Below, piece by piece: positions 3,021 to 5,227 of a DNA stretch of 31,212 nt. The number at the start of each line of letters is the position of its first letter. Position 1 is the first letter of the stretch. The notes under the pieces are model-generated. The model was given only the letters and a program-made list of their open reading frames with translations, was not told the origin of the DNA and ran no database searches. Origin of the DNA: Gammaproteobacteria bacterium (GTDB lineage: Bacteria > Pseudomonadota > Gammaproteobacteria > JAIEPX01); assembly GCA_041736975.1 (NCBI GenBank), contig JBGSSQ010000229.1, positions 1 to 31,212 on the forward strand. The letters are read 5' to 3'. The position numbers and the translations under genes were made by a program.

Positions 3021-4877
3021 TCATGCAACAAGCTCTTCAATATACTCCTGCGTTTCTGGATCATTGGAAAACACATAACAGGCCTTATGACCACGTGTCA
3101 TGAGCGTGCGGTATGTGTTTTTTACGATTATATCACCGAGCGCTTCTGCTTTGACGGGATTTTCCTTGTGCAGCTTTTTGTATCCATGAACTGATCTGTC
3201 AGATCCTGCTCGTTTTGTTGCGTCGGTAATCACTTTGCCATCTCTAACAACCAGGTCAGGACCAATTATTACCCCTATGTAATCTACTTCAAGACCTTGG
3301 CAAGTGTGTATGCAGCCGATTTCATTTACAGAGCCTGGCTTTACGATCCATAGCATGCCATCTGTATCTAAGTTCCATTTCGCACTGTAGTTATATTGAG
3401 GGAAAATGATATCATATAACATTGGATCCTTTTTGCTCTGCCATTTCCAACAATATCCTGCGACCATACGGGCTTTGTTGTTGATTTTATTTTTCTCATA
3501 AATCAGTTCATGGAGATCAGTTGGAGAGCTTAGTACACGAAATTCATAGTTAAAATCATGAAAATTAAAGTTAGCAGTTTCACGAATCTGTAGGATATTA
3601 TCTAGCCATGCTAAGTAGCCATCTGAGCCATTGCAGCGAAATTGAGATATAAGTTCAAAATTGTGCACTGTGGCACCTGCCTTACTTGCCCATTTTTTAA
3701 TTTCTTCATTGTTTCCTATATCCTGCAAGGTGACTCTCTGGTCTTCATCGACGAAAAAAATACTTAGCTTGGACGCTTCAATAAGCTCTTTCACTTGGTT
3801 TTCGCCAATATTCTGAAACATCCCAGACTTTTCGTTTAGGCGGTGAGCTTCATCTATGATAAGGACATCGTAAATGTTATTTTCTACATCATGATAGCTG
3901 CCGGAGCTAGAGAATAATTTTGTGATTTGTGATTTTTTGAAGGTGCCAGTCAACTTGCTTTCATAGACTAACCTGGGTGCTGAGTTGCGAGTAACGTATT
4001 GGGCTACTTTCTCTAGCTTTGTGATATCTACTAGAAGATTGATGGCTACGACTGATTTTCCGGTGCCAGGGCCGCCCTCTATAATAAGGACATTTTTATT
4101 TTCAGGAGTGCTTTCGCGGGCGAGTTTCATACAAGTTTCATATACCAACTTTTGGTCATCAATCATAATGAATTCTTTGTTACCTTGCAGTAAGGAATCC
4201 AACTTATCTGCGAGATTTTTAGATGGGTGTAGTTTACCTTTATCAATGCGAGTCAGAATTGCAGTATTGTCTTTATTTTTAATGAATTTCTTAATGAAAT
4301 TTCGCAGCTTAATAGCATCTGTTCTAAGGAAAATGGGTGCTTTATCTGTATATTCATGATAGAAGTAGTTTGTGATGACGTCGTCAGGAGTGTAATTGTG
4401 TAAGTAAGCACATGGCTTGAGACTTATCTTATCATCTTGCACCGTCTCATTGAAATCCTCAATTAATGCGGCATATGACCATGCTTGATAAGATGGGTGC
4501 GCAACTTCTCTGCTTTTGCCACCCACAAAAGTCTCTACTATACCATCGAGTGGCGTTATTTTCGCTGTTTGCCATTGCTTCAGCTCTATTATTACCACGG
4601 TTTCAACATCACAAGCATCAGTTCCGGCAATGATAAAGTCAATTCTTCTTGACGTTAGAGCGATTTGATATTCAAGAGCGATCGAGGACTCATCAGGTAT
4701 TTCTGGATCTTCGAGAATTTTATACATAAATTGGGCCGAGTTTTGCCACGATTGAATTTCATTTTTTGCAGTAGAGTGTCCAAGGGTTTTTATAAATTTC
4801 TCAAGTACTTTTTCAGCGATATTATTATCTAGGACGTCTTGAAGGAAACGTTTTTTGGTCGCTGAGTAAACAATCAT
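3021..4877 (-). CDS. DUF2075-family protein: N-terminal PD-(D/E)xK-like nuclease domain + SF1 (Schlafen group-3-like) helicase/ATPase, 618 aa
   Basis: RIDFII...IIELKQW (nuclease-like); Walker A GGPGTGKS; Walker B IIDEAH; QFRC; GCIHTCQGLE; YRTLMTRG. Confidence 0.88.
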   Translation of the reverse strand: MIVYSATKKRFLQDVLDNNIAEKVLEKFIKTLGHSTAKNEIQSWQNSAQFMYKILEDPEIPDESSIALEYQIALTSRRIDFIIAGTDACDVETVVIIELKQWQTAKITPLDGIVETFVGGKSREVAHPSYQAWSYAALIEDFNETVQDDKISLKPCAYLHNYTPDDVITNYFYHEYTDKAPIFLRTDAIKLRNFIKKFIKNKDNTAILTRIDKGKLHPSKNLADKLDSLLQGNKEFIMIDDQKLVYETCMKLARESTPENKNVLIIEGGPGTGKSVVAINLLVDITKLEKVAQYVTRNSAPRLVYESKLTGTFKKSQITKLFSSSGSYHDVENNIYDVLIIDEAHRLNEKSGMFQNIGENQVKELIEASKLSIFFVDEDQRVTLQDIGNNEEIKKWASKAGATVHNFELISQFRCNGSDGYLAWLDNILQIRETANFNFHDFNYEFRVLSSPTDLHELIYEKNKINNKARMVAGYCWKWQSKKDPMLYDIIFPQYNYSAKWNLDTDGMLWIVKPGSVNEIGCIHTCQGLEVDYIGVIIGPDLVVRDGKVITDATKRAGSDRSVHGYKKLHKENPVKAEALGDIIVKNTYRTLMTRGHKACYVFSNDPETQEYIEELVA

Positions 4878-5227
4878 TCTTCAAGCTCGGTATATTTCTT
4901 ATGATTTCCCTTAGACTTTTCAATGGGGTATTTCTTTCCATTCTTATCGAGCTTTTCTAGAAATGTTTTGGTGATGTCAACTTGCAAGTCATTGCACATC
5001 AAAAGTACCCAATACAACACATCTGCGAGCTCTTCTGAAACTTCCTGCTTGTTTTTGATGAGATATACATCGGTTTCGGTTTTGTCTTTCCATTGAAAGT
5101 GTTCTAAAACTTCGGCCGCCTCAAGACAAAGCGATATAGCTGAATCTTTCGGGTTATGAAACTGCTTCCAGTCACGTTCGTCACGGAATTTCACTACCCT
5201 TGCAATAAGCTCTTCAATATCTGACAT
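4874..5227 (-). CDS. MazG-like / DCTPP1-type nucleotide pyrophosphohydrolase, ~117 aa
   Basis: RDWKQFHNPKD, EAAEVLEHFQW, EELADV (ExxE/ExxD metal ligands). ATG at 5227 preferred over the track GTG at 5236. Its TGA overlaps the next ATG (ATGA). Confidence 0.9.
   Translation of the reverse strand: MSDIEELIARVVKFRDERDWKQFHNPKDSAISLCLEAAEVLEHFQWKDKTETDVYLIKNKQEVSEELADVLYWVLLMCNDLQVDITKTFLEKLDKNGKKYPIEKSKGNHKKYTELEE

What the first reader, a model, noticed from the sequence alone, without database searches (positions are those of the whole stretch)
3021..5227. Coupled MazG-like pyrophosphohydrolase + nuclease-helicase (DUF2075): candidate two-gene anti-phage system
Seen: a 117-aa DCTPP1/MazG-like gene overlaps by ATGA a 618-aa protein with an N-terminal ID...ELK nuclease-like motif and SF1 helicase motifs. 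The pair lies among an IS256, a broken nuclease and an IS scar, outside the housekeeping backbone. Established: nucleotide depletion and nuclease-helicase fusions are both known anti-phage strategies, and DCTPP1-type enzymes hydrolyse dCTP and modified dCTPs. Inference: the small enzyme removes (modified) dNTPs or restrains the partner while the large protein senses and cuts replication intermediates. I know of no characterised function for this pair and cannot check whether it is already catalogued.
Basis: partly seen in the sequence, partly recalled or inferred. Interest (0 to 1): 0.75.

Follow-up and report, generated by a model that had tools for sequence, protein, structure and literature searches.

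The report
MazG plus nuclease-helicase candidate defence pair
A small dCTP-pyrophosphatase-like gene and a DNA-cutting helicase gene overlap by four bases and form a mobile pair found across bacteria and archaea; it looks like an anti-virus system, but it was already listed as a candidate in 2022 and showed no protection in its one published test.

Summary
On the minus strand, a 117-aa DCTPP1-like MazG gene (4874-5227) overlaps by ATGA a 618-aa gene (3021-4877). The large protein has an N-terminal PD-(D/E)xK nuclease (D80, E98, K100) and an SF1B DUF2075/Schlafen-group-3 helicase.

The pair is accessory. It was not found in 5 same-genus and 35 same-class genomes. Relatives sit on islands and plasmids, beside restriction-modification, AbiE and GAPS4 genes.

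A MazG homologue lies next to the helicase in 27 of 38 evaluable loci, in four arrangements, and the two genes co-diverge. Near-identical helicases without MazG exist, so MazG is an optional accessory, not an antitoxin or obligate subunit. The same MazG type also pairs with GIY-YIG-DUF2075-S24 fusions.

The pair is not new. Millman et al. 2022 (Table S2) tested it as candidate 'Pyrophosphatase': SG192 gave no defence and SG193 failed cloning. This scan has noted the pair in at least 218 other genomes.

Most likely it is an Nhi/AbiO-type defence nuclease-helicase with a dNTP-pool enzyme as helper. That function is unproven. Verdict: new member of a catalogued but unverified kind, of moderate interest.

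The parts
4874..5227 (-). MazG-like / DCTPP1-like all-alpha NTP pyrophosphohydrolase gene (117 aa)
   Evidence: PF12643 at 2.8e-18. PDB matches: 4qgp at 7e-21 and DCTPP1/RS21-C6 at about 1e-19. Active-site motifs are conserved in 28 partner homologues.
5090..5122 (-). MazG metal-ligand motif E-x-x-E-x-x-E...FQW (residues 36-46, EAAEVLEHFQW)
   Evidence: Translation checked. The columns are 90% or more conserved and align to the EVGELAELFQW motif of DCTPP1.
5012..5038 (-). Second MazG metal-ligand motif EE-x-AD (residues 64-72, SEELADVLY)
4874..4877 (-). ATGA overlap of the MazG stop codon and the helicase start codon, suggesting translational coupling
   Evidence: The same 0-4 nt junction occurs in many homologous loci.
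3021..4877 (-). 618-aa nuclease-helicase gene (PD-(D/E)xK + DUF2075/SLFN-g3 SF1B helicase)
   Evidence: The AlphaFold2 model has mean pLDDT 92.5.
4128..4877 (-). N-terminal domain (residues 1-250) with a restriction-endonuclease-like fold
   Evidence: The domain model has pLDDT 95.7. In the VIA-align wide search the top 50 hits are almost all PD-(D/E)xK nucleases, including VC1899 (Z 8.2), Upx (7.4), Can2 (7.3), NucC, McrC and SduA. Foldseek alone gave nothing significant.
4578..4640 (-). Catalytic core D80 ... E98-L-K100 (DFIIAGTDACDVETVVIIELK)
   Evidence: D80 is invariant; E98 and K100 are 90% or more conserved in 81 sequences of 30-66% identity.
3060..4097 (-). DUF2075 / Schlafen-group-3 helicase domain (residues 261-606)
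   Evidence: PF09848 at 5.9e-100 (same coordinates). Foldseek matches SLFN11, RecD2, Dna2, Dda and Upf1 at E 1e-10 to 1e-7.
4053..4076 (-). Walker A motif GGPGTGKS (K274)
   Evidence: G271, G273 and K274 are invariant.
3843..3854 (-). Walker B / motif II, DEAH (D342, E343)
   Evidence: D342 and E343 are invariant.
5400..5428 (-). Promoter-like site TTGACA-17-TAGCAT, about 170 nt upstream of the MazG start
   Evidence: Consensus scan, 10 of 12 matches. The number of sites in the region is no higher than in shuffled sequence, so this is weak evidence.
681..1994 (+). IS256-family insertion sequence flanking the module (transposase 786-1940)
   Evidence: PF00872 at 4.1e-106. 33-nt inverted repeats at 681-713 and 1962-1994.
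2088..2714 (+). Neighbouring pseudogene: one reading frame with an in-frame TAA at codon 126; family unknown
   Evidence: No Pfam hit. The Atlas search was uninformative.

Best explanation
This is a horizontally mobile, accessory two-gene module of the Nhi/AbiO type, most probably acting against phages or other invading DNA.

The large protein is the effector. Its SF1B DUF2075/Schlafen-group-3 helicase uses ATP to load onto and move along single-stranded or replicating DNA. Its N-terminal PD-(D/E)xK nuclease then cuts that DNA. The folds and intact catalytic residues are shown here; the substrate and the trigger are inferred by analogy with Nhi.

The small protein is an active DCTPP1-type dNTP pyrophosphatase. 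Homology and intact metal ligands are shown here; the substrate is inferred. It is a frequent but dispensable helper acting on the nucleotide pool. It may lower dCTP, or it may destroy 5-modified dCTP-type precursors. Either action would leave invading DNA starved or unprotected, or would keep host DNA free of modified bases.

It is not an inhibitor or obligate subunit of the nuclease-helicase.
For: - Domains and catalytic residues are intact and under strong conservation in both proteins.
- A MazG homologue is adjacent to the helicase in 27 of 47 loci from different phyla and archaea, or 27 of 38 loci where both flanks are readable. There are four arrangements: 17 upstream, 8 downstream, 1 divergent and 1 convergent. 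Adjacency therefore survived several rearrangements.
- Pairwise distances of the two proteins correlate (Mantel r = 0.62, p <= 2e-4).
- The distribution is patchy. The helicase was not found in 5 same-genus and 35 same-class genomes, yet homologues are 50-70% identical across Saccharibacteria, Bacteroidota, Bacillota, Methanobrevibacter and haloarchaeal plasmids.
- Defence or mobile contexts occur elsewhere: an smpB-side island with GIY-YIG and GAPS4 nucleases; an integrase/AlpA/Rep island in Methylotenera; a Hymenobacter plasmid next to a restriction-modification system; and AbiE, RhuM, SocA and PDC-S candidates among neighbours.
- The architecture is the same as experimentally validated Nhi (10.1101/776245), Nhi-like (10.1101/2022.05.11.491447) and AbiO (PMC13064643). 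PF09848 is used as a known 'Abi' defence Pfam in PMC10121019.
- Millman et al. drew their 45 tested candidates, which include this pair, from a screen for gene clusters with at least 40% of genes in defence islands at q < 0.05.
- The MazG is dispensable. Intact helicases 92-97% identical to MazG-linked ones lack it, and the nearest homologue lacks it.
- The nuclease module is swappable. A MazG 52% identical to this one overlaps by 4 bp a GIY-YIG-DUF2075-S24 fusion.
Against: - The only published test of an orthologous pair (SG192, Bacillus firmus LK28) showed no defence, against the study's panel of 26 phages in E. coli and B. subtilis.
- The MazG has no PADLOC model. The helicase hits Nhi, AbiO and PDC-S41 models only partially.
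- DCTPP1-like MazG genes of the same subfamily mostly occur without DUF2075: 23 of the 29 best loci in a 400-genome phylum sample. In some families they are universal (10 of 10 genomes), as expected for housekeeping genes.
- Neighbourhoods are heterogeneous and include plain housekeeping genes.
- I did not compute a defence-island enrichment statistic myself.
- No trigger, substrate or protein-protein contact has been shown.
Confidence: 0.55

Rival explanations
1. DNA-damage or replication-stress module. The helicase-nuclease processes stalled forks or damaged DNA, and the MazG cleans the dNTP pool. The pair would then be an accessory repair and sanitation cassette, not an immune system.
For: - Some family members carry a C-terminal LexA-like S24 domain, with the GxSM serine motif intact in 17 of 19, which links the family to the RecA/SOS signal.
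- DCTPP1-type enzymes are pool sanitisers (PMC7162842).
- MazG-like homologues are universal in some bacterial families.
- SG192 gave no phage defence.
Against: - Not found in all 40 related genomes searched.
- Located on islands and plasmids next to restriction-modification, AbiE and GAPS4 genes.
- Strong signs of horizontal transfer, for example a helicase 92% identical between a Paceibacteria and a Flavobacteriia genome.
- Same architecture as three validated defence proteins.
Confidence: 0.15
2. Cargo that serves a mobile element, not the host. The MazG would degrade host nucleotide signals or pools as counter-defence, as phage MazG enzymes do. The helicase-nuclease would help element replication or attack competing elements.
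For: - The Methylotenera copy lies inside an integrase/AlpA/Rep island.
- One copy is in a record deposited as Microcystis phage Mwe-JY31, with a 109-aa gene directly upstream.
- An IS256 element flanks the pair here.
Against: - Rare in phages (4 of 50,697 records).
- Rare in plasmids (22 of 72,556).
- In CPR-type genomes it sits between ribosomal and glycolytic genes with no mobility genes nearby.
Confidence: 0.12
3. Toxin-antitoxin-like addiction pair, which is the reader's 'restrains the partner' idea. The nuclease-helicase is toxic and the MazG neutralises it.
For: - The genes overlap by ATGA with the small gene first.
- AbiO is toxic at high copy number (PMC13064643).
- Cloning of SG193 failed.
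Against: - 11 of 38 evaluable loci lack MazG while the helicase ORF is intact. These include helicases 92-97% identical to MazG-linked ones and the closest homologue.
- Gene order and orientation vary, including convergent and divergent pairs.
- All catalytic residues of the MazG are conserved. A mere binding inhibitor would not need them.
Confidence: 0.08
4. A relic with no current function in this reduced, IS-ridden genome.
For: The neighbouring ORF is a pseudogene and an IS256 lies beside the pair. The assembly is a fragmented MAG of a lineage rich in effector-like genes.
Against: Both ORFs are full length and every family-invariant residue is present.
Confidence: 0.05

Closest known systems
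Candidate system 'Pyrophosphatase' (constructs SG192 from Bacillus firmus LK28 and SG193 from B. thuringiensis Lr3/2) in Millman et al. 2022, Table S2 (bioRxiv 10.1101/2022.05.11.491447)
   Same: It is the same two-gene unit: a roughly 100-aa MazG-type pyrophosphatase plus a roughly 620-640-aa nuclease-DUF2075 protein. The SG192 DUF2075 sequence printed in the supplement shares long motifs with this protein, including RR/KR-x-DFI-x-AG, ELKQW, HPSYQAWSYAALI, PCAYLHNY, GGPGTGKSV-x-AINLLV, DEAHRLNEKSG and GENQVKELI. A Bacillaceae orthologue (L014) is 53% identical.
   Different: It comes from another phylum at about 50% identity. The Bacillus MazG is shorter (98 aa) and lacks the C-terminal KG-x3-KY tail present here. 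That construct showed no defence. This copy is untested.
Nhi (SERP2475, Staphylococcus epidermidis; Bari et al., bioRxiv 10.1101/776245), Nhi-like (B. cereus FSL H8-0482, SG141; Millman et al. 2022) and lactococcal AbiO
   Same: They share the domain architecture: an N-terminal PD-(D/E)xK nuclease and a C-terminal SF1B helicase overlapping DUF2075/SLFN-g3. The PADLOC Nhi and AbiO models hit the P-loop region at about 1e-11.
   Different: Those are single-gene systems with proven defence. Sequence similarity to them is confined to about 180 residues of the helicase core. This family usually travels with a MazG partner. Nhi-like is escaped by phages that lose a DNA methylase (10.1101/2022.08.27.505566). 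Nothing comparable is known for this family.
Mammalian DCTPP1 / RS21-C6 (PDB 2a3q, 6sqw, 7mu5) and the archaeal pyrophosphatase 4qgp
   Same: They share the all-alpha MazG-like fold family. Matches are at E 1e-19 to 7e-21 over nearly the whole length. The E-x-x-E-x-x-E and EE-x-x-D ligands, W20, F-H, W46 and the KYP...G...KY tail all align.
   Different: DCTPP1 is a stand-alone housekeeping enzyme. This gene is translationally coupled to a nuclease-helicase. Its substrate is untested.
Human Schlafen 11 and 5 (group 3 Schlafens)
   Same: The helicase domain is in the same Pfam family (PF09848). SLFN11 is the best Foldseek hit at 1.6e-10.
   Different: Schlafens carry an N-terminal tRNA-cleaving Schlafen nuclease domain, not a PD-(D/E)xK domain. 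Identity is about 11%.
PADLOC candidate PDC-S41
   Same: The N-terminal nuclease domain and the start of the P-loop match the model (2e-15, residues 3-298).
   Different: Only the first 274 of 657 model positions match, at 54 bits. This is a related domain, not membership. No literature on PDC-S41 was found.

Membership tests
Nhi / Nhi-like / AbiO-type nuclease-helicase defence proteins | N-terminal PD-(D/E)xK nuclease domain with the catalytic D...(D/E)xK residues | tested here: met
   D80, E98 and K100 are conserved. The N-domain model (pLDDT 95.7) aligns best to PD-(D/E)xK nucleases, with Z up to 8.2 and a nearly homogeneous top 50.
Nhi / Nhi-like / AbiO-type nuclease-helicase defence proteins | C-terminal SF1B helicase overlapping DUF2075 (PF09848), with Walker A and B motifs | tested here: met
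   PF09848 at 5.9e-100. GGPGTGKS and DEAH are present. Fold matches to RecD2, Dda, Dna2, Upf1 and SLFN11.
Nhi / Nhi-like / AbiO-type nuclease-helicase defence proteins | Full-length sequence match to the family's HMMs (PADLOC Nhi PDLC02372 and AbiO PDLC02350) | tested here: not met
   Only residues 233-417 match (about 42 bits, about 1e-11). The Nhi-like protein itself could not be aligned because that would have required pasting its sequence.
Nhi / Nhi-like / AbiO-type nuclease-helicase defence proteins | Confers phage resistance as a single gene | not testable with these tools
   This needs plaque assays.
Millman 2022 candidate 'Pyrophosphatase' (MazG + DUF2075) | Adjacent MazG-type pyrophosphatase gene and nuclease-DUF2075 gene | tested here: met
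   for this window. The same unit is seen in 27 of 47 related loci.
Millman 2022 candidate 'Pyrophosphatase' (MazG + DUF2075) | Sequence homology to the SG192 proteins | tested here: met
   This rests on comparing by eye the supplement text, which share long identical motifs in both proteins. It is not a tool alignment. A Bacillaceae orthologue (L014) is 53% identical.
Millman 2022 candidate 'Pyrophosphatase' (MazG + DUF2075) | Enrichment in defence islands | tested here: inconclusive
   The paper's screen required at least 40% of a cluster's genes in defence islands at q < 0.05. Here I saw only examples: restriction-modification, AbiE, GAPS4, RhuM and WYL neighbours, mixed with housekeeping neighbours. 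No statistic was computed.
Millman 2022 candidate 'Pyrophosphatase' (MazG + DUF2075) | Experimentally observed defence | not testable with these tools
   Published result: SG192 'x' (no defence) and SG193 cloning failed.
DCTPP1 / RS21-C6-type all-alpha NTP pyrophosphatases (PF12643) | HMM score above the gathering threshold and intact metal-binding E-x-x-E ... E-x-x-D motifs | tested here: met
   66.4 bits against a 27-bit cut-off. The motifs EAAEVLE and EELAD are present and conserved.
DCTPP1 / RS21-C6-type all-alpha NTP pyrophosphatases (PF12643) | [quoted passage not shown] | not testable with these tools
   This needs enzyme assays. The statement that the pocket residues (W20, H24, W46, and an aromatic residue at positions 73/74) match DCTPP1 rests on the alignment. 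The roles I assign to those residues come from my memory of the RS21-C6 structure papers.
Type II toxin-antitoxin-like pair | Obligate co-occurrence of the toxin with its antitoxin | tested here: not met
   11 of 38 evaluable loci have an intact helicase without MazG, including ones 92-97% identical to MazG-linked copies.
PADLOC PDC-S41 | Full-length match to the PDC-S41 model | tested here: not met
   Residues 3-298 match model positions 5-274 of 657, at 54 bits.

The most novel reading that the evidence does not exclude
The MazG partner is a sanitiser of modified dNTPs, and its job is tied to base modification. In one version it destroys phage-made precursors such as 5-hydroxymethyl- or 5-methyl-dCTP, so that hypermodified phages must build ordinary DNA that the nuclease-helicase can cut. 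In the other version it stops salvaged modified nucleotides from entering host DNA, which protects the host from a modification-sensing nuclease-helicase.

This reading would also explain the negative SG192 result, if the 26-phage panel lacked the relevant modification. I did not check that.

Three observations fit it:
- DCTPP1 prefers 5-modified dCTP.
- Nhi-like is escaped by phages that lose a DNA methylase.
- A small SAM-dependent methyltransferase recurs in the MazG position or next to it in four loci.
Probability: 0.15. Interest if true: 0.7.

Novelty: new member of a known kind. Interest (0 to 1): 0.38.

Why it matters
If the pair is a working immune system, it would join nucleotide-pool manipulation and nuclease-helicase attack in one cassette. 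That would be a prokaryotic parallel to the coexistence of dNTP-pool enzymes and Schlafen helicases in animal antiviral defence.

The pair is widespread: bacteria, CPR lineages and archaea, and at least 218 genomes in this scan alone. Its only published test was negative. The useful points for anyone who retests it are these:
- The MazG is optional, so the helicase alone should be assayed.
- The nuclease head is interchangeable (PD-(D/E)xK or GIY-YIG).
- Some members carry a LexA-like self-cleaving tail, which points to DNA damage or RecA filaments as a possible trigger.
- Phages with modified bases are the obvious gap in the tested panel.

For this particular genome the finding is an ordinary extra copy of that cassette.

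Tried and rejected
- **Literature.** A search for 'DUF2075' with 'MazG' gave 0 papers, and 'PDC-S41' gave 0. 'MazG' with anti-phage defense, helicase and nuclease gave one irrelevant paper. The decisive record was found only in the supplementary Table S2 of Millman et al..
- **Structure databases.** phmmer of the helicase against PDB sequences gave no hit. A profile of the N-domain against the PDB gave nothing. Foldseek of the N-domain against the PDB gave nothing significant, with a best E of 0.2. Only the exhaustive VIA-align search showed the nuclease fold.
- **Synteny.** Comparison with same-genus genomes through the neighbouring acyl-CoA ligase failed. Only one of five genomes has a homologue, at 48% identity and with an internal stop. 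The insertion boundaries could therefore not be defined.
- **'IS scar' upstream of MazG.** The 359-bp spacer has no other copy in the genome, so I rejected that label.
- **'Broken nuclease' at 2088-2714.** Pfam and Atlas searches gave no family.
- **Neighbour scan.** Scanning 150 neighbour ORFs through an alignment of unrelated proteins gave only a coarse tally. It showed both defence and housekeeping neighbours, not a statistic.
- **Antitoxin idea.** Rejected because of the near-identical MazG-less helicases.
- **Alternative fixed partner.** I looked for one in the MazG-less loci. Neighbours differ: methyltransferase, WYL-WCX regulator, Metallophos_2, DUF1294 and aldolase. Only the small methyltransferase recurs.
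- **Not done.** I did not align the published Nhi-like sequence directly, because that would have required pasting a long sequence.
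Full report
**1. The observation**

On the minus strand, an ORF of 117 codons (ATG at 5227, stop at 4874-4876) overlaps by the four bases ATGA an ORF of 618 codons (4877 to 3021).

The small protein matches Pfam PF12643 (MazG-like) at 2.8e-18. It also matches the solved structures of an archaeal pyrophosphatase (4qgp, 7e-21) and of mouse and human DCTPP1/RS21-C6 (about 1e-19), over nearly its whole length.

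The large protein matches PF09848 (DUF2075, now named 'Schlafen group 3 helicase domain') at 5.9e-100 over residues 261-606. It has Walker A GGPGTGKS and DEAH.

E98-L-K100.

Of the context claims:
- The IS256-family element is real.
- The neighbouring 'broken nuclease' is a frame with one in-frame stop, but no family could be assigned.
- The 'IS scar' upstream is a unique 359-bp spacer.

**2. The two proteins**

I built an alignment of 81 full-length homologues at 30-66% identity, taken from an exhaustive search of 1.84 billion representatives. That search gave 734 clusters at E <= 1e-30.
- Invariant residues: D80, W102, P128, Y135, G271, G273, K274, D342, E343, D377, Q380, R414, Q527 and R595.
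- Nearly invariant residues include E69, R78, E98, K100 and H127.

AlphaFold2 gives a confident model of the full protein (pLDDT 92.5). The helicase half matches SF1B helicases (SLFN11, RecD2, Dna2, Dda, Upf1) at E 1e-10 to 1e-7.

The N-terminal 250 residues were modelled alone (pLDDT 95.7). Foldseek found nothing significant for them. In an exhaustive structural search, however, the top 50 matches were almost all restriction-endonuclease-fold nucleases, many from defence systems. They include VC1899 (Z 8.2), the Upx nuclease domain (7.4), Can2/Card1 (about 7), NucC, McrC and Shedu SduA. Z values of 7-8 are middling on their own. The assignment rests on the uniform fold class together with the conserved D...ExK residues.

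In the MazG, the E-x-x-E-x-x-E and EE-x-A-D metal-ligand motifs, W20, F23-H24, W46 and the C-terminal KYP...G...KY tail are conserved in all 28 partner sequences, and they align to DCTPP1. Both enzymes therefore look catalytically competent.

**3. Whether the pair is a unit**

Among 47 loci in species-representative genomes that encode a relative of the helicase (47-63% identity), 27 have a MazG homologue directly beside it. The hosts include Saccharibacteria, Paceibacteria, Bacteroidota, Bacillota, Negativicutes, Deltaproteobacteria, Spirochaetales, Bifidobacteriaceae and Methanobrevibacter.
- 17 are upstream on the same strand, often with the same 0-4 nt junction.
- 8 are downstream.
- 1 is divergent and 1 is convergent.
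- 11 loci with both flanks readable lack it, giving 27 of 38 evaluable.

Adjacency has therefore survived several rearrangements. Pairwise distances of the two proteins correlate (Mantel r = 0.62, p <= 2e-4).

The link is not obligatory. L019, L031 and L033/L034 lack MazG, yet their intact helicases are 94%, 97% and 92% identical to those of L017, L030 and L041, which have it. The closest homologue found (71% identity) has none. It is flanked instead by an HsdR-N-like protein and an HNH-WYL protein.

From the MazG side, 54 of 401 genomes of the same phylum have a homologue at E <= 1e-10. Of the 29 best loci, 6 have a DUF2075 gene alongside. The other 23 share the same DCTPP1-like motifs.

Two of the six (L091, L092) carry a MazG 52% identical to this one. 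There it overlaps by 4 bp a protein of 728-732 aa built as GIY-YIG nuclease + DUF2075 + S24 (LexA-like) peptidase. The constant partner of the MazG is therefore the DUF2075 helicase, and the nuclease head is interchangeable.

A subset of the PD-(D/E)xK family also has the S24 tail, with the GxSM serine motif kept in 17 of 19.

**4. Accessory and mobile character**

The helicase was not found in 5 genomes of the same genus (78-99% complete) or in 35 of the same class. The window's own genome has one copy.

Contexts elsewhere:
- Beside smpB with a GIY-YIG gene and a GAPS4-type nuclease.
- In Methylotenera, inside an integrase/AlpA/Rep island with an HNH gene.
- On a Hymenobacter plasmid beside a restriction-modification system and a second DUF2075 gene.
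- In CPR-like contigs, wedged between ribosomal and glycolytic genes, followed by a DUF2779 (PF11074) protein.

Among 150 neighbouring ORFs from 21 loci there are AbiEi/AbiEii pairs, RhuM, SocA/Panacea, HNH and PADLOC candidates S01, S05 and S23. There are also translation factors, dehydrogenases and transporters.

The family is rare in deposited phages (4 of 50,697) and plasmids (22 of 72,556, including archaeal megaplasmids).

**5. Literature**

The architecture of PD-(D/E)xK nuclease plus DUF2075 helicase is that of three validated single-gene systems:
- Nhi, which degrades phage replication intermediates (10.1101/776245).
- Nhi-like, from Millman et al. 2022.
- AbiO (PMC13064643).

The Sorek laboratory uses PF09848 as a known 'Abi' Pfam (PMC10121019).

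The pair itself is in Table S2 of Millman et al. 2022 as candidate system 'Pyrophosphatase':
- SG192 (Bacillus firmus LK28; pyrophosphatase of 98 aa plus DUF2075 of 643 aa) is marked 'x' for observed defence.
- SG193 (B. thuringiensis Lr3/2) is marked 'cloning failed'.

The SG192 sequences printed there share long identical motifs with the proteins of this window.

According to the main text, the 45 candidates were prioritised from a screen for gene clusters with at least 40% of genes in defence islands (q < 0.05). They were challenged with 26 phages, and 21 were verified. The authors state that unverified ones may still act against other phages or under other conditions.

It is catalogued as a candidate and has been tested once, with a negative result.

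PADLOC has no MazG model. It gives only partial helicase hits: PDC-S41 at 2e-15 over residues 3-298, and Nhi and AbiO at about 1e-11 over the P-loop region.

**6. Mechanism**

Shown here:
- Two intact, strongly conserved enzymes.
- A coupled but dispensable association.
- Horizontal mobility.

Inferred:
- By analogy with Nhi, the helicase-nuclease engages single-stranded or replicating foreign DNA and degrades it.
- By homology to DCTPP1, the MazG hydrolyses dCTP or 5-modified dCTP (PMC7162842), and so acts on the nucleotide pool as a helper.

A repair or SOS role cannot be excluded, given the S24 tails, the housekeeping relatives of the MazG and the negative SG192 result. A role for the mobile element itself also cannot be excluded.

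A more specific idea is that the MazG deals with modified nucleotides. Three points fit it: DCTPP1's substrate preference; the report that phages escape Nhi-like by losing a DNA methylase (10.1101/2022.08.27.505566); and a small SAM methyltransferase that recurs beside the helicase in four loci, twice where MazG is missing. This idea remains speculative.

**7. Earlier notes of this scan**

The same pair has been reported many times: 251 findings in at least 218 genomes. These include the GIY-YIG and S24 variants and cases with extra genes inserted between the two. My independent tests agree with those notes on conservation, variants and the closest known systems. The addition here is the published negative test of the pair.

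**8. Verdict**

The defence reading is plausible but unproven, and the one experiment so far is negative. This copy is an ordinary further member of a widespread cassette that is already catalogued. Interest is moderate and attaches to the family, not to this locus.

Noticed in passing
L019:5273-5860, L033:8042-8632, L017:5760-6332, L045:2808-3386: A SAM-dependent methyltransferase of about 195 aa (Methyltransf_25; 45-65% identity among copies) recurs next to the DUF2075 helicase in four Bacillota or Tenericutes loci. In two of them MazG is absent. In L017 it directly follows MazG. It may be a third, alternative accessory gene of the cassette.
   Followed up: partly
L009 versus L008 (helicase at 6001-7851 and 6001-7854): The helicase of a Paceibacteria (CPR) MAG is 92% identical to that of Formosa maritima (Flavobacteriia), while their MazG partners are only 50% identical. 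This points to recent transfer between phyla combined with a swap of the MazG partner.
   Followed up: partly
L091:3311-5820 and L092:2371-4886: A MazG-like gene 52% identical to the window's overlaps by 4 bp a GIY-YIG + DUF2075 + S24 peptidase fusion of 728-732 aa. The nuclease head of the cassette is therefore interchangeable. L064 has a near-identical MazG with no helicase within 1.5 kb.
   Followed up: partly
P0122, P0087 and 17 other homologues of 740-817 aa; L049:6001-8406: PD-(D/E)xK-DUF2075 proteins with a C-terminal LexA-like S24 domain keep the GxSM serine motif in 17 of 19 cases, and many keep a downstream (I/V)K(K/R)(Y/F) lysine. An A-A-C-G-A-F-G stretch precedes the domain in P0122. 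This suggests self-cleavage linked to RecA and DNA damage.
   Followed up: partly
window 2088-2714 (+): This is a single 208-codon frame with an in-frame TAA at codon 126, so it is a pseudogene. It has a D-F-V-V ... E-V-K motif, but no family was found. Its first codons overlap a 23-nt copy (91% identical) of the right end of the adjacent IS256 (2102-2124 against 1967-1989).
   Followed up: partly
window 1-504 (-), 9213-9857 (-): A Ras/Roc-family small GTPase gene fragment and a leucine-rich-repeat protein gene lie nearby. These are eukaryote-like genes typical of intracellular bacteria such as Legionellales. Earlier first-reader notes on this window discuss them.
   Followed up: no
L059:7001-10987 (Hymenobacter canadensis plasmid NZ_CP114769.1): Two DUF2075 genes lie in tandem directly downstream of a restriction endonuclease, a DNA methyltransferase and a DUF4747 gene. 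No MazG is listed there, but the PLSDB gene table is incomplete.
   Followed up: no
L037, L038, L040, L042, L043, L044, L048: A straight end-to-end translation of the helicase match contains stops in these loci, because the tblastn matches come in several pieces or frames. Some of these copies may be frameshifted pseudogenes. I did not examine them one by one.
   Followed up: no
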